Positions 1,788 to 49,436 of a stretch of 60,906 bases of DNA are shown here, in pieces. Made by a program: the position numbers and the translations under genes. Each line of letters opens with the position of its first letter. The first letter of the stretch is position 1. The stretch is from a virus (taxonomy: Duplodnaviria; Caudoviricetes). The stretch is taken from positions 1 to 60,906 of the IMG/VR virus record IMGVR_UViG_3300036766_000064. The stretch is one strand, 5' to 3'. The notes beneath the pieces were generated by a model. It was not told where the DNA came from and ran no database searches. It was given only the letters and a program-made list of their open reading frames with translations.

Positions 1788-4700
1788 CGCGCCAATCCTT
1801 CTGTCAACCTGTTTTTCTGTGCATCCAGCGCGTCCAGTAGCCCGCGCTTCGTGTCTGTGGAATAAGTACGGTTTGCTTCGATCAAACGCTCTTTCTCGTT
1901 GATCTTGCCGAGCGCACGCTTGACCTGTTCGGTACGATGGTATTGCACGATCTTATCGCCTTCGCTTTCCCTGATACCAGTTGCTTTCTCCCTGTCCCCA
2001 ACCTTCAAGGCTGCATGGTAATCGGCGTAGGCTTCCTCGATCACCTTGGCTTGGTCGTAGAATTGCGTGACATACCGGCTTGAGTTTGTTGGCAGGGTTT
2101 CAACAAAGTTTCCGGCAAGGAACACGTCTTTCAGCTTCATGGCTGGTTTGTCCGGCTTGCCGGCCATCGGGCGCATACCGTAGTCCAATGCGGTCATTGC
2201 CGAGGATCCAACCCATCCGAAATAGGCCCGTATCATGAAATCGATCTGTACCGGGGAAAGTTGGTCGCTCACATCCAGCATGGCGAGTAATTGCGCTGGC
2301 AGCGAAGTACGGCCACCGATACGTTCATCCTTGGACAATCGTTCCATGCCCTGCGTCTCGATATCGCGTCCGGTAAAACTATCCTTGTTGGCGTAGAGGT
2401 CAATAAGAGGTTTGACGATTTGCGGGACCGGATTCATGGAAAGGTTGTTGGAAATAATGCCGCCAAGCGATTTTGCAAACCGCTTGCCTGGATCACGTTC
2501 GTCTGAGGTAAAGGCTTCCAACACGCGCTCTGCAATGCTGGCAACCGCCCCTATTTCAAAGGGCTTGGGAATACGGAACGCCACGCCCCCAACCTTGAAC
2601 CACCAGTACGAATCCCTGTCCCATTCCTCGCGTTTTTTCCAATCGTCGTCGTCGTGATTCCAGAGGAACAGGGCGAGCGATGCGAGGGTGACGGCGCCCA
2701 CAACATAGGCCATCCGCTTTGGATCGTTCTGCGCCGCGCGGCCTAGTTTGTAGAGGCCCTGCAGCCTTGCGTTCATGAAGGGTACGGTTTGCGTCAAGAA
2801 ACGAATCGCCGCCCACTGACCGCCCATCGAGAAGTCCAGCATATCCCGAGCCTGATACGAGGCTTCCAGGTGGTCCATTCCACGTTCTCGGAGTTGCATG
2901 TAGAGGGCAACCCGATTGGCGTTCTCTGAGCGATCCCCCTGCTCCTGGTAGTAGTCCCATGCCTTTTGCAGCATGGCGACAACTTTGTGCTGCTTGTCGA
3001 GGATGGTGTTTTCGTGGACCCCGGATTCAATCAAGCGTTTGACGTGTTCCGCCCGGTTTCCTTCAAGCATGGTTCCAAAGCGAATGATTCCACCGCCGGC
3101 CATCGCCTGGGCTCGCACTTCGCTTTCGTGTGAGGTCGCTTTCCAGCCAGTTGCAATGTTCTTGATTGGGTTGTAACCGATATCGCTTTGCGCAATAGCG
3201 GCCACCGAATCCCGGATGATGTTGCGAATACGAAAGGCCGGGTTGACCGTAACCCCTGTCGTGAGCCACCGCTTGAAGGTTGCCAGAGCTTTCATGGCCG
3301 ACCCGCCAAAGCCAGAGAATTCCATCGACGTGATAGCGTCAAGCAGGAATGGGTCGTTGACTTCATAGAAATGCTGCTTGCCATCGACCAGGACCGCGAC
3401 AGAGCCTTTAACCTTCTCCGGGATCTCCGTTGCCACCCCAAGCTTCGCCGCGGCTTCGAGAGAGGCCCGAGCCGCTTGATTGCGCATCGATGCAGAAAGC
3501 AGGTGCGACCAGTTCTGCAGGGTATTTCCGAGCAAGTCGTGTAACCCCTCAGACCCCCCTTTGAGTTTCTTGAAGGCGTATTGATTGACCAGCCCCGAGG
3601 AGATTGAGGGACCGCCTACGCCATCCTCCATGACACGATAGAACGGGACGTAAAAATCCTTCTCCCAAATCTTCCTTGATTCCCGGTCAATGAGACCGGT
3701 CTGTTCGGCAATGTCGAGCACGCTCTTGGCGTAGCCATCGAATTGCACTTTGGTCTTGAAATACTGCGCCTGTCGGCTCGTGCCATCCGGCATTTTGCCG
3801 AGGTTCAATTCTTTGAGCGCGGAAATGTCGTCGTCGGTGAACAGGTTTTCCTTGCCAGCCAATTTGAGTTGAGCAGCACGGTTACCGGCGATCCATGCAA
3901 AGAAACGGTCATGCTCGCCTTGTAGGGTTTGGAGCAGGCCCAGGACCCCGCCATCCTTGTTTTCGATGTTGAGAGCGCCGCTGTCGAGCTTGAGCTTACC
4001 GTAAAGCATCATGGCTTCCAGCCCGCCATCGGTTGCTTTGGTGAGCCTGGCGAGCATGTATTCCCGGTGCCCGAGTTCTTTGATCGGATCAAACTGATCG
4101 ACCAGCCCTTGCCGGAATATCTTGCCGAAATTCGTACGAAGCTCTCTGGCACGTTCTCCGAGAGTTTTTTCTTCGATGATAACGCCAGCCTTTTTCAGCG
4201 CTGCCTGGACTTCTGGCGATTCGGATTCCGCCCACTTCGGCATCGTGACTTTGGTAGCGGGTGGCGTCCCCTCTGCGGCTTCGTCAGCCCGTGAGTTGTT
4301 CAACAATCCACCGGAAAAGTTTATTTGTGTTGGCATTTCAACCGAAAGTAGTTGCTGTACCGGCGCGTTAAGAAGCCGATCTGTGATGCGAAGAATTTCA
4401 GACAATGTTGTATCTGCGCTTACTGGTAATCCAAGAAACTTCCTAATCGCCGATACAAATCGCGTCCACAAGTTGCCGCCTTGATACGGGATACTTTCAA
4501 GATATTCCTGCATGGAGCGATTCGTAAGTCCCCATGAAACTACTTCACCCAAGTCGCGCAGCGAGTTATGTCCCTGTGCAACGATGCGTTCTATACGGTT
4601 ATCCAATTCACCAACCTTCTTACCGGAAATTCGTTGGTTAAAGTGATTCTGGATAGCTTTATGTACGTCTTCTAAATCTGCAATATCTTTATGCAGTGCA

Positions 4701-43319: not shown

Positions 43320-43528
43320 CGTTCGTGGAGCCGTGAGAATATGCGTCTAAGTATATAACTTCTGGCCAAGGACACCACCGTAAAGGCAACCGTAATCGCA
43401 ATGTTCTGGTCAAGGCGTACCGCAAGCCCAAGCGCGGGGAATACGATCAGCTGCGCACCGAAAGCTATCCCCATGCCAATGACGATATTGGCGATGGATT
43501 CGATCAGGGATTGCAGCCGGGATTGCAT
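43316..43528 (-). CDS. Small two-TM phage protein (QSRLQSLIES family)
   Basis: 70 aa; usually found next to phage methylase genes. Confidence 0.7.
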   Translation of the reverse strand: MQSRLQSLIESIANIVIGMGIAFGAQLIVFPALGLAVRLDQNIAITVAFTVVSLARSYILRRIFSRLHER

Positions 43529-44526
43529 TAGGCGACCTCGGTTTCTTCCGCAATAAACTCAATGCTCTGCTGCAATTCAATGACCTTGCCGGCATATGCC
43601 GCTTGCACATTTTTCTCGGCTTGCCGGTAATAACTCGGCTTGAGTTCTATGCCAATACCCTTGCGGCCAGCGCAGATTGCGCCATAGACCTCGGAGCCGA
43701 CCCCCATGAACGGCGTCAACACGGTTTCGCCGGGATTCGACCACAGCACCATCACCCGGTCGATCACGTCAAGCTGCAGCGGGTGGACATGCTTCTCGTC
43801 CTCTGAATCACGCGCCGCCTTGAACGGCAACACGCGACCAATACGAATATCATCCCAAAACGCAGAGGCGTAGTTCCGCCAAATCCAATGCGAGTAGCGG
43901 TTCTCGATCTGGTTTCCTTTCCATCCGCGGTACGGCAGGAGTTCGCTTGGCATCTTGCGCGCCCCGGCGTATTCGTCTAATCCGGTCGGGTGCGTGATCG
44001 GAACTGGATTCTCGCCATGCCTGCGGAACACCAGCAAGTAATCCGCGCTGGCAACGCTACAACGCGACGAGTCGTCAACAATGGTTTTGTGCGCGAGGTT
44101 CTTTGCCATCGTCCGATTGCGGACGGCGAGAGGTTCTTTCCATATCGCATAGCGGGCAATGTAGTTCCATCCCTCTTTTTCGTGCAGCCGGATAATGTCT
44201 CCGGGAAAGTCGATCAGATGATCTTTGCCGCAGTTCCCGCTTGGCACGTCCATGCAATGCACGGCAGTCATGCGCCCCGGCATCGTGATCCTTGCGAGTT
44301 CGCGCACTACGAAAGCGTAATGAGAAAAGAATTCGTCGTAACTCTTGCAGTTGGATAAATCTCTTTCGCTTGACGAATAGGTAAATAAACCACCCCCCGA
44401 TGTTGCAAATGGAGGCGAGTACACGGATAGATGGATGGATTGATCCGGTATGCTCGCCATCACATCAATCGCGTCACCATTGTAGATACAATATTTGTCC
44501 GTCAGTTTTTGATCATGCACAAGCAT
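43528..44526 (-). CDS. N4-cytosine/N6-adenine DNA methyltransferase (beta class)
   Basis: Motif IV SPPF precedes motif I TPFMGVGS; KHVHPLQLDVI. Confidence 0.9.
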   Translation of the reverse strand: MLVHDQKLTDKYCIYNGDAIDVMASIPDQSIHLSVYSPPFATSGGGLFTYSSSERDLSNCKSYDEFFSHYAFVVRELARITMPGRMTAVHCMDVPSGNCGKDHLIDFPGDIIRLHEKEGWNYIARYAIWKEPLAVRNRTMAKNLAHKTIVDDSSRCSVASADYLLVFRRHGENPVPITHPTGLDEYAGARKMPSELLPYRGWKGNQIENRYSHWIWRNYASAFWDDIRIGRVLPFKAARDSEDEKHVHPLQLDVIDRVMVLWSNPGETVLTPFMGVGSEVYGAICAGRKGIGIELKPSYYRQAEKNVQAAYAGKVIELQQSIEFIAEETEVA

Positions 44527-44546: not shown

Positions 44547-44859
44547 GGGATTTATATTAACTTCCGTCACTCCGCAGGTTCATAGGTAGCCGCGAAAATG
44601 TCGGGTTTGCATGGGTAATACTCGCCCTGCACACCGCGAATAATCCAGTCGCCCTCACTCGCGCGCATGTTTCCCTCCCTTGTGTGAATGATGATGCTGT
44701 GATTCGGCTCAAATTCATTTACCGGAGCATCAATATCACCAGCACAGAACTCCGCCGCTTGTTTGAGCGTTTCTTTCGTGAACTGAAATGCCTCAATTAC
44801 TACTGGTTTTTTACGAAATTTCATTTTGAATATCCTAGGTAGTTAAATATGTAATTCCC
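44547..44859. mobile_element. Degenerate TIR-bounded non-autonomous cassette 2
   Basis: Left end GGGATTTATAT---TAACTTCC; right end (rc) GGGAATTACATATTTAACTACC; same family as the ends at 47502/48258; flanks match only 5/8. Confidence 0.6.
44567..44824 (-). CDS. Conserved small phage protein (RKKPVVIEA...GDWII...YPCKPDIF family)
   Basis: 85 aa; cargo of cassette 2. Confidence 0.8.
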   Translation of the reverse strand: MKFRKKPVVIEAFQFTKETLKQAAEFCAGDIDAPVNEFEPNHSIIIHTREGNMRASEGDWIIRGVQGEYYPCKPDIFAATYEPAE

Positions 44860-46617: not shown

Positions 46618-46802
46618 AAATCCAACTGTGGTGATCGTTTCTCGATGGTTTTCCAGAACGCGGCAGGCGCAAGCCAAACGCGCTCATCCGCACTTTTTTC
46701 CTCACGACCGCAGGCCGCGCATTTCCTTGAATAGACCGTAATCCCCATTGTCTTGTTCAAATGATCACTGTTTCCGACGATACCACCGCACGGACAAATC
46801 AT
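46614..46802 (-). CDS. Small Zn-ribbon protein
   Basis: CPC...CAACG; ATGA-coupled. Confidence 0.55.
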   Translation of the reverse strand: MICPCGGIVGNSDHLNKTMGITVYSRKCAACGREEKSADERVWLAPAAFWKTIEKRSPQLDL

Positions 46803-47140
46803 GCTGCCCTCGCATACGCTTCAATAGGTGGTTGAGTCGGATCGCTCCAAACAATTCCGTGTTCGGCGCCAAACGCGAACATCAGCTCGATCAACTCGCT
46901 CATTTCCTTTTTCTTCATCCGACTAGTCGAGATGCCGAGCACCACGAATCCACCCCAAATACCCTTTGCGATTCGTTGCTCCCGTTTCAACCCGGCGGTC
47001 ATCATCGTTTTCCAATCCTCCGGCGTGAGCCATTGCAACTCACCATCTACCAGCCATTGAAGTTGCTTGCTGATATCCGTCAGCATCGGCCACATACGCG
47101 AATTCTGGTCAAGCGTTCTCGGCGGGTCGGCAATCTCCAT
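46799..47140 (-). CDS. ninB: NinB/Orf recombination mediator
   Basis: RTLDQNSRMWPMLTDIS, EDWK, STSRMKKKEMSELIE..FGAEHG. Confidence 0.9.
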   Translation of the reverse strand: MEIADPPRTLDQNSRMWPMLTDISKQLQWLVDGELQWLTPEDWKTMMTAGLKREQRIAKGIWGGFVVLGISTSRMKKKEMSELIELMFAFGAEHGIVWSDPTQPPIEAYARAA

Positions 47141-47481
47141 CAGATATATCCAATCTCGACCGCGAGCAGTCCGTGCTTTTCGATAACGCCCCTACGTATT
47201 TCCAATCGGTCGAATTGGTTGTCGTCCTCGATCACGCCGACATGCTGCAGGGCATCGAGGATCGCTTTCCAAAGATTGTCCAGATCGCGCCGACGGGCGT
47301 CCGGCGGGCAGGCAATGACCTCGATGTATAGCCGCCCCTTCATCTTGCGAACCCTGGCGTTGTGGCAGGCTACAAAGACCTCCTTGCGGTACGCCAATCC
47401 CTCGGCACCAATCCGCATTGATCCATTGCGATTGCGCTGCCAGTAGTGATTCACACTCGGCGGGTACGGCAGACGAAACAT
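47140..47481 (-). CDS. rusA: RusA Holliday junction resolvase
   Basis: LPYPPSVNHYW, RRRDLDN..K..LDAL, DD. Confidence 0.92.
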   Translation of the reverse strand: MFRLPYPPSVNHYWQRNRNGSMRIGAEGLAYRKEVFVACHNARVRKMKGRLYIEVIACPPDARRRDLDNLWKAILDALQHVGVIEDDNQFDRLEIRRGVIEKHGLLAVEIGYI

Positions 47482-47501
47482 CACGCCACCCCCATTGTTT
47501 T

Positions 47502-48258
47502 GGGACTTATATACTTAACTCCACTAACCGATTCAACGGCTTGGCTAGTGGGCTTCATCACGCGAACATCCGGGCTTGCCGCTGCGCGTTTTCGATACGC
47601 TGGCAGGCGATGTCGAAGTAGCGCGGATCAATCTCGATCCCGATGAACTTGCGGCTTAAATCCATGCACGCCACGCCAGTCGTGCCGCTGCCCATGAAGG
47701 GGTCGAGGATGGTTTGCGGGTTGCCTGCTTTCTCGATGCACCATTTCATTAAGGCTTCCGGCTTTTGTGTCGGATGCTCTTTCGCAATCTTCGTGTTTAT
47801 GTAAGCATCAGTCCTTGCCATGTCGAAGATGGAAACTTGCCCGCTGAGGTTTGTCCACGCCATTTCGCCGTCGGTCATTAGCGACCGTTGAACTTTATTC
47901 CAAACAAGCCACTTCGATTTAGCTGGGAGTGGAAAGTAATTTCCGCCCCAAATAATAGATACATTCGCGGCGGCAATAACAAGTTTCAATAATTCTTCGT
48001 TTGGTGGCGCTGAGTCCCAATCTGTTGAGTCATACTTTTTCCAATAGCCACCATTTGAAACTCTGCCAGCTACAGCCATGTCAGTCTGCTGCTTATCGTA
48101 GCCAATCCCATACGGCGGATCAGTAATGACGCAATCCACCTTCGGCAGCGTCGGCAGAATCTCAAGGCAATCACCGAGATACAGCGTCGCATTTCCGATG
48201 ACCACGGGGCTATTCATAACCCGCTGATTCCGCTGTGGGAGTCAAGTATATAATTCCC
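47502..48258. mobile_element. 757-bp non-autonomous IS1595-like mobile insertion cassette carrying a DNA methylase
   Basis: TIRs GGGACTTATATACTTAACTCC / GGGAATTATATACTTGACTCC (19/21; 31/41 extended); perfect 8-bp flanking duplication ATTGTTTT (47494-47501, 48259-48266); no transposase. Confidence 0.85.
47558..48217 (-). CDS. N6-adenine DNA methyltransferase (beta class)
   Basis: TDPPYG, HPTQKP, DPFMGSGTT. Confidence 0.92.
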   Translation of the reverse strand: MNSPVVIGNATLYLGDCLEILPTLPKVDCVITDPPYGIGYDKQQTDMAVAGRVSNGGYWKKYDSTDWDSAPPNEELLKLVIAAANVSIIWGGNYFPLPAKSKWLVWNKVQRSLMTDGEMAWTNLSGQVSIFDMARTDAYINTKIAKEHPTQKPEALMKWCIEKAGNPQTILDPFMGSGTTGVACMDLSRKFIGIEIDPRYFDIACQRIENAQRQARMFA

Positions 48259-48758
48259 ATTGTTTTGTCGATCAGCAGGATCAGCGCCTTGATTCTGGCG
48301 CTTGGCTTCAACTTCTTCCCGGGACGGCCTACCGGGTGTCGGGGAGCCTTGGAAACGACTGGCGCCCCCTTGGGCGGTCTAGGTTTTGGTGTTTTGGCCT
48401 TTTTCACCTGCTTCGCGGGCGGCACAAACTTGATTTCCTCGGGAAGCGGCTTGCGCAGCGGGACGGTCACGATGTCCGGTCCCTCCCATGGACAGGGCAA
48501 ATGTGGGGGAGTGCGTTGGTGGTCCAGCACCCGCCATTTGTTCGCCACCATGCCCCCAGCACTCTCCCGGTATTCCGTTTCCGCGGTCCCGTTGACAATC
48601 ACCCTGCAGCTGATCAGCGTTCCATTCGCGCAGTACGGAGCCAGGGCCGGGCCAATCGCTTTACCGGCAACCCCAAGCGCCTCGGCGATCTGCGAGGAGC
48701 GCATTGACCCATTCGCTTTGATAAGCGCAAGACAACGTTGGGCGATGGATTCAGTCAC
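48210..48758 (-). CDS. Winged-HTH protein with Lys/Pro-rich tail
   Basis: MRSSQIAEALGV; GTG start; C-terminus is now supplied by the TIR. Confidence 0.6.
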   Translation of the reverse strand: MTESIAQRCLALIKANGSMRSSQIAEALGVAGKAIGPALAPYCANGTLISCRVIVNGTAETEYRESAGGMVANKWRVLDHQRTPPHLPCPWEGPDIVTVPLRKPLPEEIKFVPPAKQVKKAKTPKPRPPKGAPVVSKAPRHPVGRPGKKLKPSARIKALILLIDKTMGIIYLTPTAESAGYE

Positions 48759-49011
48759 CAAGCCTCCCCTGCATGTACGCAATCCGTTTCTTCCCCTTGC
48801 GTATTTCAACGCGCACCAGGTCGGATACGTTCATCGGTTTGCCGAGGAGTACGCCACCCTCTTTAACGTAACTTGGACGAAGATCAGCGCCGAATGCGTC
48901 ACGCATCGCGGATACGAAAGCTGCGCAGAGGGGGGCGACGGCGTGATTTGTTGACGCCAGTGTTTTACGTTTCGCGCGAGCAGAATCGATGCGATCGGTA
49001 AGGGATTTCAC
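48751..49011 (-). CDS. Hypothetical protein
   Basis: AFVSAMRDAFG motif; GTGA-coupled. Confidence 0.55.
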   Translation of the reverse strand: MKSLTDRIDSARAKRKTLASTNHAVAPLCAAFVSAMRDAFGADLRPSYVKEGGVLLGKPMNVSDLVRVEIRKGKKRIAYMQGRLGD

Positions 49012-49406: not shown

Positions 49407-49436
49407 TTGCTATGCTTTTCAAGTTATGCCTTGAGC

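What the first reader, a model, noticed from the sequence alone, without database searches (positions are those of the whole stretch)
47494..48266. Transposase-less IS1595-like cassette that delivered a DNA methylase without breaking the operon
Seen: a 757-bp unit with TIRs (19/21, 31/41 extended) and a perfect 8-bp duplication ATTGTTTT, containing only an N6-MTase. Removing it in silico restores the upstream gene as ...IDKTMGVA* with its TGA overlapping the rusA ATG (TGATG), a clean ancestral junction. With the insert, the upstream frame reads through the TIR and stops overlapping the MTase start, so translational coupling is kept. Established: 8-bp duplications and GGnnATTAT-type ends characterise the IS1595 family (ISNwi1-like group), and passenger-only derivatives (MICs) are known in bacteria. 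Inference: host transposases act in trans to load anti-restriction genes into phage genomes. This is my best candidate for an undescribed system here.
Basis: partly seen in the sequence, partly recalled or inferred. Interest (0 to 1): 0.85.

Follow-up and report, generated by a model that had tools for sequence, protein, structure and literature searches.

The report
Transposase-less IS1595 methylase cassette in phage
A 757-bp mini-transposon that has lost its own transposase dropped a DNA methylase gene into the last codons of a phage gene; the element type is already known, but a related phage still has the uninterrupted gene, so the insertion can be seen directly.

Summary
A 757-bp unit (47502-48258) has inverted ends matching at 19 of 21 bases. 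It is flanked by a perfect 8-bp duplication, ATTGTTTT, and holds one gene, an N6-adenine-type DNA methylase.

The predicted empty site exists in nature. The only homologue found for the upstream protein is 92% identical and ends ...LLIDKTMGVA, exactly the product predicted by removing the insert in silico.

The same 21-22-nt ends bound 132 units in fetched viral and bacterial contigs:
- 79 of the 132 carry a full IS1595-family transposase.
- 88 of the 128 testable units have perfect 8-bp duplications, against 0 of 127 in a control.
- 15 of the 24 non-redundant transposase-less units in viral contigs carry DNA-modification genes.

The cassette is therefore a non-autonomous derivative (a mobile insertion cassette) of an IS1595-family element, inserted by transposition. 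It needs a transposase supplied in trans. Whether that enzyme came from the host or from a phage is not shown.

The operon is kept by overlapping stop and start codons.

The kind of element is known. This scan has already reported the same phage-borne family on at least eight other genomes. I found no paper describing its home in phages or its methylase-rich cargo.

The parts
47494..47501 (.). Target-site duplication, copy 1 (ATTGTTTT)
   Evidence: an identical 8-mer lies at 48259-48266.
47502..47522 (+). Terminal inverted repeat at the cargo-distal end (GGGACTTATATACTTAACTCC)
   Evidence: 19 of 21 to the family consensus GGGAATTATATACTTGACTCC(C).
47481..47558 (-). 25-codon exit ORF (MKPTSQAVESVSGVKYISPKTMGVA*). 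Its ATG shares the A of the methylase TGA. It reads out through the inverted repeat and the duplication, and its TGA overlaps the rusA ATG.
   Evidence: translation; sequence. That it is translated is inference.
47558..48217 (-). Cargo: orphan DNA methyltransferase, 219 aa, with DPPY near the N-terminus and FMGSGTTG near the C-terminus
   Evidence: PF01555, 3.7e-25; best solved relatives: DpnA-type adenine methyltransferase 5hek at 8.5e-19, and CcrM; phrog_67 DNA methyltransferase, 4.2e-54.
48237..48258 (-). Terminal inverted repeat at the cargo-proximal end (GGGAATTATATACTTGACTCCC)
   Evidence: 22 of 22 to the family consensus..
48259..48266 (.). Target-site duplication, copy 2 (ATTGTTTT)
48210..48809 (-). 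Upstream phage gene of unknown function. Its last two codons (VA) are replaced by 14 codons read from the inverted repeat (IIYLTPTAESAGYE).
   Evidence: The natural uninterrupted allele P0001 ends ...DKTMGVA.
47140..47484 (-). Downstream gene rusA (Holliday-junction resolvase family). Its ATG at 47481-47479 overlaps the ancestral TGA.
   Evidence: PF05866, 2.2e-13.
44547..44859 (-). Second, older-looking 313-bp cassette with related ends, carrying an 85-aa gene (44570-44824) between the helicase and another methylase
   Evidence: third match to the end pattern, 3 mismatches; the upstream end is 18 of 22 to the consensus, and the downstream end matches over 15 consensus positions with a 2-nt insertion; the cargo matches phrog_419 (unknown function) at 3.9e-36. 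No clean duplication was seen and no exact relatives were found.

Best explanation
The 757-bp unit is a non-autonomous derivative of an IS1595-family insertion sequence, a mobile insertion cassette. It consists of two 21-22-nt terminal inverted repeats enclosing one orphan N6-adenine-type DNA methyltransferase gene and no transposase.

A DDE transposase of the same IS1595 clade, made elsewhere, recognised the two ends. It could have come from a host copy, a co-infecting phage, or the unsequenced 19% of this genome. It inserted the unit into the A+T-rich 8-mer ATTGTTTT inside the last codons of a phage early or middle gene just upstream of rusA, duplicating the 8-mer.

The cassette has no promoter-like or terminator-like site on the coding strand. 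It is therefore most likely transcribed as part of the phage operon. Translation can pass along a chain of overlapping stop and start codons:
1. upstream gene to methylase (ATGAATAG);
2. methylase to a 25-codon exit ORF (TGATG);
3. exit ORF to rusA (TGATG).

The likely benefit to the phage is methylation of its own DNA against host restriction.

Shown: the anatomy, the natural empty allele, autonomous relatives with the same ends, and transposition of transposase-less units elsewhere in the family. Inferred: the source of the transposase, expression by read-through and coupling, and the anti-restriction role.
For: 1. **Anatomy.** Inverted ends, a perfect 8-bp duplication and a single methylase gene.
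2. **Natural empty allele.** The only homologue found among 5.8 billion protein clusters is P0001 (178 aa, 92% identical, from another assembly). It ends ...ARIKALILLIDKTMGVA, which is the in-silico excision product. The window's own copies end ...DKTMGIIYLTPTAESAGYE.
3. **The ends occur widely.** The 21-nt end pattern occurs in at least 119 stretches of viral contigs and at least 120 of bacterial genome contigs.
4. **Family counts.** In those loci plus the window I found 132 end-bounded units. By tblastn, 79 carry a full-length transposase (44 viral, 35 genome), 9 a partial one, and 44 none (25 viral, 19 genome).
5. **The transposase is IS1595-type.** It matches DDE_Tnp_IS1595 (1.3e-38) and the IS1595 zinc ribbon (7.9e-10). 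NCBI names close relatives 'IS1595 family transposase'.
6. **Target duplications.** Perfect 8-bp duplications flank 88 of 128 testable units. Control 8-mers taken 20 nt further out match in 0 of 127. The duplications are 84% A+T.
7. **Transposase-less units move as units.** L073 and L080 hold the same 1069-bp methylase cassette (91% identical over its whole length) in unrelated flanks with different perfect duplications. L039 and L150 share a 313-bp unit at 87.5% identity.
8. **The cassette occurs in other samples.** In three other sediment runs, contigs cover only cassette-internal sequence and stop at or within a few bases of the tips of the inverted ends. One 596-nt contig matches from 47502 inward and continues for 392 nt that did not align to the laid stretch.
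9. **Foreign composition.** GC is lower inside the unit.
10. **No signals on the coding strand.** No promoter-like or terminator-like site lies on the - strand inside the unit.
11. **Published family traits.** 8-bp direct repeats, 25-bp inverted repeats, A+T-rich targets and passenger genes are reported for IS1595-type elements (PMC5704250 and PMC12561309, passages read).
Against: - The empty site is shown only at protein level.
- No transposase was found in the window and none can be tied to this event.
- 40 of the 128 testable units lack a perfect duplication. This may reflect mispaired ends, nested copies or recombination.
- The loci were collected with an exact 21-nt pattern, so conservation of the ends is partly built into the sample. 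Several loci are the same insertion seen twice: L009/L040, L032/L072, L043/L092, L041/L068, L046/L184 and L059/L147.
- Methylase activity, its target motif, and translation of the exit ORF are untested.
- Contig breaks at the tips could be assembly breaks at a repeat rather than other insertion sites.
Confidence: 0.9

Rival explanations
1. A full transporter IS (transposase plus methylase) inserted here, and the transposase gene was later deleted in place. On this reading the cassette never moved as a transposase-less unit.
For: Full elements carrying a transposase plus an N6_N4-type methylase exist, for example L101 (2769 bp: transposase 1737-2660, methylase 2790-3746). In addition, 9 of 132 units hold only partial transposase remnants, so decay in place does happen.
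Against: - No transposase remnant is present. The cargo ATG lies 41 nt from one tip and its stop 56 nt from the other.
- Equally compact methylase-only units of 700-805 bp recur: L121, L043, L044 and L038.
- Other transposase-less units demonstrably sit at different sites.
- Parts of this cassette occur in other samples, with contigs ending at or within a few bases of the tips.
Confidence: 0.07
2. The cassette entered this phage by homologous recombination with a related phage that already carried it at the same site. The transposition event happened in another genome.
For: Phage genomes are mosaics, and the flanks would offer homology (general knowledge). The nearest relative with the empty allele is only 92% identical in protein, so the date and the lineage of the insertion are open.
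Against: This concerns history only. The duplication and the ends still show that the insertion at this site was made by transposition. No second phage with the filled site was found beyond the window's own sample.
Confidence: 0.02
3. The inverted repeats are conserved phage operators or other regulatory sites flanking an ancestral methylase gene, and the 8-bp repeat is coincidence.
For: The repeats are strongly conserved, and the cargo-proximal one contains TTGACT, a -35-like hexamer (read).
Against: - The same ends enclose unrelated cargo and IS1595 transposases in contigs assigned to many phyla.
- 88 of 128 testable units have perfect 8-bp duplications, against 0 of 127 in the control.
- A natural allele lacks the insert.
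- No promoter-like site was called in the unit.
Confidence: 0.01

Closest known systems
Mobile insertion cassettes (MICs): transposase-less, gene-carrying derivatives of insertion sequences, such as the IS231-derived MIC231 of the Bacillus cereus group.
   Same: Ends of an insertion sequence, a target duplication, passenger gene(s), no transposase, and a presumed need for mobilisation in trans.
   Different: The parent family is different (IS1595 rather than IS4/IS231). The unit sits in a phage genome, the cargo is a DNA methyltransferase, and trans-mobilisation is not shown experimentally here.
Transporter IS (tIS) of the IS1595 family: MTnSag1/tISSag10 of Streptococcus agalactiae and tISCpe8 of Clostridium perfringens (PMC5704250, passages read)
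   Same: IS1595-type DDE transposase in the autonomous relatives, terminal inverted repeats of about 25 bp, 8-bp direct repeats, A+T-rich targets, and a passenger gene inside the ends.
   Different: Those elements keep their transposase, carry lincosamide-resistance genes, and live on chromosomes or plasmids of Firmicutes. This unit has no transposase, carries a DNA methylase and lies in a phage.
IS1595 family, ISNwi1 subgroup (Siguier, Gagnevin and Chandler 2009; cited, paper not read; the subgroup end motif 'ggnnatTAT' is recalled from ISfinder)
   Same: The tips GGGAATTAT and GGGACTTAT fit the recalled motif. The duplication is 8 bp, and the autonomous relatives have a transposase of about 305 aa with a zinc ribbon and a DDE domain.
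   Different: Subgroup membership was not tested. There was no ISfinder comparison and no ISNwi1 sequence in hand.
MITEs (miniature inverted-repeat transposable elements)
   Same: Non-autonomous, bounded by the ends of an insertion sequence, with target duplications. Gene-less units of 101-371 bp with these same ends exist in bacterial contigs.
   Different: MITEs carry no gene, whereas this unit carries a complete methylase gene.

Membership tests
IS1595 family (as a derivative) | DDE transposase with the DDE_Tnp_IS1595 domain and an N-terminal zinc ribbon | tested here: not met
   The cassette and the whole window lack it. Units bounded by the same ends do carry it: PF12762 at 1.3e-38 and PF12760 at 7.9e-10 in L006, and 79 of 132 units by tblastn. 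The cassette is therefore a non-autonomous derivative, not an insertion sequence.
IS1595 family (as a derivative) | 8-bp target-site duplication | tested here: met
   ATTGTTTT on both sides. Family-wide, 88 of 128 testable units have a perfect duplication, against 0 of 127 in the control. Literature: PMC5704250 and PMC12561309.
IS1595 family (as a derivative) | Terminal inverted repeats shared with autonomous members | tested here: met
   19 of 21 and 22 of 22 to the consensus of both ends of the transposase-bearing units.
IS1595 family (as a derivative) | Preference for A+T-rich targets | tested here: met
   The target is 7 of 8 A/T. Family duplications are 84% A+T. The same preference is reported for MTnSag1, tISCpe8 and ISApl4.
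ISNwi1 subgroup of IS1595 | Subgroup-specific end motif and transposase clade as defined in ISfinder | not testable with these tools
   ISfinder is not available. The motif is recalled only. Two papers in the library mention ISNwi1, and I read neither.
Mobile insertion cassette (MIC) | Ends of an insertion sequence plus a target duplication, passenger gene(s), and no transposase | tested here: met
Mobile insertion cassette (MIC) | Mobilised in trans by the parent element's transposase | tested here: inconclusive
   Comparative support only. The same transposase-less unit lies at two unrelated sites with different duplications (L073/L080). There is a natural empty allele for this insertion. No experiment was done.
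Transporter IS (tIS) | Transposase and passenger gene together inside the ends | tested here: not met
   There is no transposase in the unit.
Composite transposon | Cargo flanked by two complete IS copies | tested here: not met
   The ends are single 21-22-nt repeats, and the cargo starts 41 nt from the tip.
N6/N4 DNA methyltransferase (PF01555), adenine-specific type | Family domain with a DPPY catalytic motif and an AdoMet-binding FxGxG motif | tested here: met
   PF01555 at 3.7e-25. DPPY and FMGSGTTG are read in the translation. The nearest solved chains are adenine methyltransferases, DpnA-type 5hek at 8.5e-19 and CcrM at 6.2e-17. The base and motif specificity cannot be tested here.

The most novel reading that the evidence does not exclude
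The cassette may be one instance of a phage-adapted clade of IS1595 elements that acts as a shared delivery vehicle for DNA-modification (counter-restriction) genes among phages of many bacterial phyla. Its transposase-less mini-cassettes may be built to be expressed from whatever operon they land in without polar damage.

Features that fit this reading:
- The cargo start lies about 26-53 nt from the tip.
- The inverted repeat is open in two of three reading frames in both directions.
- Here there is a relay of three overlapping stop and start junctions that hands translation back to rusA.
- Cargo in viral contigs is mostly methylases of four different families, plus Mom (15 of 24 non-redundant transposase-less units).
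- Transposases from viral and bacterial contigs intermix on a tree.
Probability: 0.35. Interest if true: 0.7.

Novelty: new member of a known kind. Interest (0 to 1): 0.45.

Why it matters
How phages acquire orphan methyltransferases is usually left to unspecified recombination. Here the route is visible at base-pair resolution: a transposon-derived cassette with a target duplication, and a natural relative that still has the uninterrupted gene.

At family level, the data point to a widespread IS1595 clade that moves DNA-modification genes into and between phage genomes, often as single-gene units without a transposase. If that holds, transposition is a regular source of counter-defence genes in phages. 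The conserved 22-nt ends could then serve as a simple marker for finding new counter-defence cargo, since 8 of the 24 non-redundant transposase-less viral units carry genes of unknown function.

The cassette itself is an ordinary member of a known kind of element.

Tried and rejected
**Searches for a DNA-level empty site**
- The search for related loci with the upstream protein in viral contigs found no relative.
- The same search with P0001 in metagenome contigs found no relative.
- RusA relatives in viral contigs were at most 47% identical, too distant to be informative, and I did not examine them further.
- blastn of 47100-48850 against 50,697 phage records gave only short matches to the methylase core, covering at most 9% of the query.
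- Read laying on four runs showed no joint across the whole insert. In X2 and X3 the flanks had no cover. In X4 the rusA-side flank had none and the other flank only scattered low-depth cover (for example record 32, 48653-48812, no differences). This says nothing either way. One X4 joint, 47522 to 48237 with a side of 22, joins the two inverted ends with unknown content between them and is not an empty site.

**Analyses dropped or corrected**
- A crude ORF-based test of whether insertions are co-oriented with flanking genes or lie between genes was dropped. It assigned the wrong strand to the window's own flanks, because high-GC DNA gives spurious long ORFs.
- My first transposase count was too low (40 of 73 viral and 36 of 59 genome units). 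Greedy ORF picking had kept antisense ORFs of 339-702 aa ('cluster 1', with no Pfam or PHROG match) in place of the transposase. tblastn corrected the counts to 44 and 35. As a result, the 77 viral 'cargo' ORFs scanned include 8 such artefacts.
- For the genome cargo scan I passed 61 of 79 ORFs. I left out 7 near-duplicate 100-aa ORFs of a multi-copy IS and 11 short or duplicate ORFs.
- The careful tree did not finish in 288 s, so the quick tree was used.

**Ideas rejected**
- A 12-bp duplication is rejected as chance.
- The repeats as operators are rejected; see the rival explanations.
- The cassette B end as an exact pattern had no match in viral contigs, and its cargo has no homologue among the other cargos.

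**Literature**
Five searches found no paper on phage-borne IS1595 cassettes with methylase cargo. The library lacks most subscription journals, Siguier et al. 2009 was not readable, and supplements were closed, so this is not proof that the topic is out of print.
Full report
**What is there**

The genes in this part of the window run on the - strand. The order is: an unknown 199-aa ORF (48210-48809), a 219-aa ORF (47558-48217), rusA (47140-47484) and ninB (46799-47140).

The 219-aa ORF is a DNA methyltransferase of the N6_N4 family (PF01555, 3.7e-25). DPPY lies near its N-terminus and FMGSGTTG near its C-terminus. Its nearest solved relatives are adenine methyltransferases: DpnA-type 5hek at 8.5e-19, and CcrM.

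It is bounded by GGGACTTATATACTTAACTCC (47502-47522) and, inverted, GGGAATTATATACTTGACTCC (48258-48238). These match at 19 of 21, and the arms extend to 42 nt at 76%. ATTGTTTT lies directly outside both ends. The degenerate 21-mer gives 3 matches in the window, at up to 3 mismatches, and 0 in shuffles. GC dips to 0.445-0.46 inside the unit, against 0.56-0.63 outside.

The exact repeat is 12 nt. Such an extension occurs in 6 of 88 family members with perfect duplications, so I treat it as chance and the duplication as 8 bp.

**The junctions**

With the insert, the upstream ORF ends ...DKTMGIIYLTPTAESAGYE*. Its TAG lies inside codons 2-3 of the methylase gene.

The insert plus one duplication copy is 765 bp, or 255 codons. 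Removing it keeps the frame and gives ...DKTMGVA*, whose TGA overlaps the rusA ATG (read).

The methylase TGA shares its A with an ATG that opens a 25-codon ORF, MKPTSQAVESVSGVKYISPKTMGVA*. This ORF reads out through the distal inverted repeat and the duplication, in the ancestral frame, and ends on the same TGA that overlaps the rusA ATG. Three overlapping stop and start junctions therefore link the upstream gene, the methylase, the exit ORF and rusA.

No promoter-like or terminator-like site lies on the - strand inside the unit. The nearest promoter-like sites on that strand are upstream, at 49422, 49789 and 50385. Expression by read-through and coupling is an inference.

**The empty site exists**

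A search of about 5.8 billion protein clusters with the upstream ORF returned one cluster. Its representative, P0001 (178 aa, 92% identical, from an ENA assembly on a 1064-nt contig), ends ...ARIKALILLIDKTMGVA. That is exactly the predicted pre-insertion product. The other two members of the cluster are the window's own gene call and a copy on a 3825-nt contig, matching record 6 of run X1, the window's probable source sample. Both carry the filled ending.

The empty allele is therefore shown at protein level only.

**The ends are those of a large IS1595 clade**

The 21-nt end pattern occurs in at least 119 stretches of IMG/VR viral contigs and at least 120 stretches of bacterial genome contigs. 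The bacterial contigs are labelled as many phyla, mostly MAGs of Acidobacteriota, Alpha-, Beta- and Gammaproteobacteria, Planctomycetota, Chloroflexota, Verrucomicrobiota and others. Two are isolates, Nitrosospira briensis and Sphingopyxis indica.

Pairing inward-facing ends (at most 4 mismatches, 60-6000 bp apart) gave 132 units: 73 viral, counting the window, and 59 bacterial. By tblastn:
- 79 units carry a full-length transposase (44 viral, 35 bacterial);
- 9 carry a partial one;
- 44 carry none (25 viral, 19 bacterial).

The transposase is of the IS1595 type: PF12762 at 1.3e-38 and the PF12760 zinc ribbon at 7.9e-10. It is very common in metagenomes, with 7860 clusters at E of 1e-20 or better among the 8000 candidates scored. 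NCBI annotates close relatives as 'IS1595 family transposase'.

Perfect 8-bp duplications flank 88 of 128 testable units (51 of 71 viral, 37 of 57 bacterial). Control 8-mers taken 20 nt further out match in 0 of 127. The duplications are 84% A+T. Both ends share the 22-nt consensus GGGAATTATATACTTGACTCCC, and nothing is conserved further in.

Three caveats apply:
- The loci were collected with an exact pattern, so conservation of the ends is partly built into the sample.
- Several loci are the same insertion seen twice.
- 40 of the testable units lack a perfect duplication.

**Transposase-less units move as units**

L073 and L080 hold the same 1069-bp methylase-only unit, 91% identical end to end. 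Their flanks are unrelated and their perfect duplications differ (AATCTGAA and AAATTAAA). L039, a viral contig, and L150, a bacterial MAG contig, share a 313-bp unit at 87.5%.

For the window's own cassette, contigs from three other sediment runs cover only cassette-internal sequence and stop at or within a few bases of the tips. For example, one 596-nt contig matches from 47502 inward with 2 differences and carries 392 nt that did not align to the laid stretch. This fits other insertion sites, but assembly breaks at a repeat could look the same.

**Cargo**

Among 24 non-redundant transposase-less units in viral contigs, 15 carry a DNA-modification enzyme:
- N6_N4 methylases: L010, L038, L043, L044, L119, L121 and the window;
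- Dam-type: L050 (27.4 bits, just under Pfam's 28.1-bit cut-off), L066 and L078;
- D12 class: L073 and L080;
- C5 methylases: L074 and L084;
- Mom: the second unit in L038.

One unit holds a TnpB gene and 8 hold genes without a Pfam match.

A tally over all 77 non-transposase ORFs of viral units gave C5 methylase 10, N6_N4 8, Dam 3, D12 2, Mom 1 and Eco29kI nuclease 1. Eight of those 77 ORFs turned out to be antisense artefacts of the transposase gene.

In bacterial contigs (61 of 79 ORFs scanned) the cargo is more mixed: N6_N4 5, HSDR_N_2 2, and one each of dCTP deaminase, PAPS reductase, MqsR toxin, HNH nuclease and nested IS genes.

The cargo methylases related to the window's are only 28-53% identical to it, while the ends are nearly invariant.

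On a quick tree of 61 transposases, viral and bacterial rows intermix, with 14 label changes of which at least 7 are forced by well-supported branches. The source of the transposase that moved this cassette therefore cannot be assigned to host or phage.

**Second cassette**

A third match to the end pattern, at 44859-44839, opens a 313-bp unit (44547-44859) holding an 85-aa gene of a phage family of unknown function (phrog_419, 3.9e-36). Its upstream end is 18 of 22 to the consensus. Its downstream end is degenerate, and I saw no clean duplication. No exact relative of its end was found. It looks like an older or more divergent member.

**Comparison with what is known**

IS1595-type elements with 25-bp inverted repeats, 8-bp direct repeats, A+T-rich targets and passenger genes are in print: MTnSag1/tISSag10 and tISCpe8 (PMC5704250, passages read), and ISApl4 (PMC12561309, passages read). 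Transposase-less, gene-carrying derivatives (MICs) are a known category, recalled here. The cassette meets the structural definition of a MIC of the IS1595 family. It fails the definitions of an insertion sequence, a tIS, a MITE and a composite transposon. The ISNwi1 subgroup assignment rests on a recalled end motif and was not tested.

This scan has already followed up the same phage-borne family on at least eight other genomes and reached the same reading. Five literature searches found no paper on its home in phages or its methylase-rich cargo. The library's coverage of subscription journals is limited.

**Verdict**

The insertion is real and well supported. It is a new member of a known kind. 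Its value lies in the clean natural empty allele, the stop-start relay that keeps the operon intact, and further support for the family-level picture of transposon-borne methylase delivery into phages.

Noticed in passing
window 47481-47558 (-): A 25-codon ORF starts on the methylase stop (TGATG), reads out through the distal inverted repeat in the ancestral frame, and ends on the TGA that overlaps the rusA ATG. It may relay translational coupling across the insert.
   Followed up: partly
window 44547-44859 (-): A second 313-bp cassette has related but more degenerate ends and no clean duplication. It carries an 85-aa gene matching phrog_419 (unknown function) and lies between a helicase-like gene and a second N6_N4 methylase (43528-44526).
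   Followed up: partly
L125, L143, L195, L202, L203, L210, L223, L225 (at least L125, L143, L195 and L202 lie on contigs of one Gammaproteobacteria MAG): A 1451-1458-bp IS with these ends (309-aa transposase plus a 100-aa ORF, GC 0.42) is present in many copies, most with different perfect 8-bp duplications. It looks like a currently active IS in that genome.
   Followed up: no
L160, L162, L173, L179, L229, L181, L216, L232, L156 (genome contigs): Gene-less units of 101-371 bp bounded by the same ends, resembling MITEs, occur in bacterial MAG contigs. Several have perfect 8-bp duplications.
   Followed up: no
L038:11961-12588; a member of alignment A1; L026:3433-4595: Unusual cargo lies inside these ends in viral contigs: a Mom-family DNA-modification gene alone in a 628-bp unit, an Eco29kI-type restriction nuclease in one unit, and a TnpB (OrfB_IS605/Cas12f-like) gene alone in a 1163-bp unit without a clean duplication.
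   Followed up: no
24 non-redundant transposase-less viral units: Unit lengths are 3n+1 in 13 of 24, so that the unit plus its 8-bp duplication adds whole codons. Among the 18 non-redundant bacterial units, 7 are 3n+1. The bias is weak and may be chance.
   Followed up: no
viral units L004, L039, L046, L067, L069, L081, L106, L118: Single small genes of 64-186 aa with no Pfam match (those tested had no PHROG match either) ride in transposase-less units beside the methylase-carrying ones. They are candidates for unknown counter-defence functions.
   Followed up: no
window about 43352-43371 (-): A stretch resembling the core of the repeat (TTATATACTT) lies in direct orientation inside a small membrane-protein ORF downstream of the second methylase. 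It has more than 3 mismatches to the 21-mer and is probably chance.
   Followed up: no
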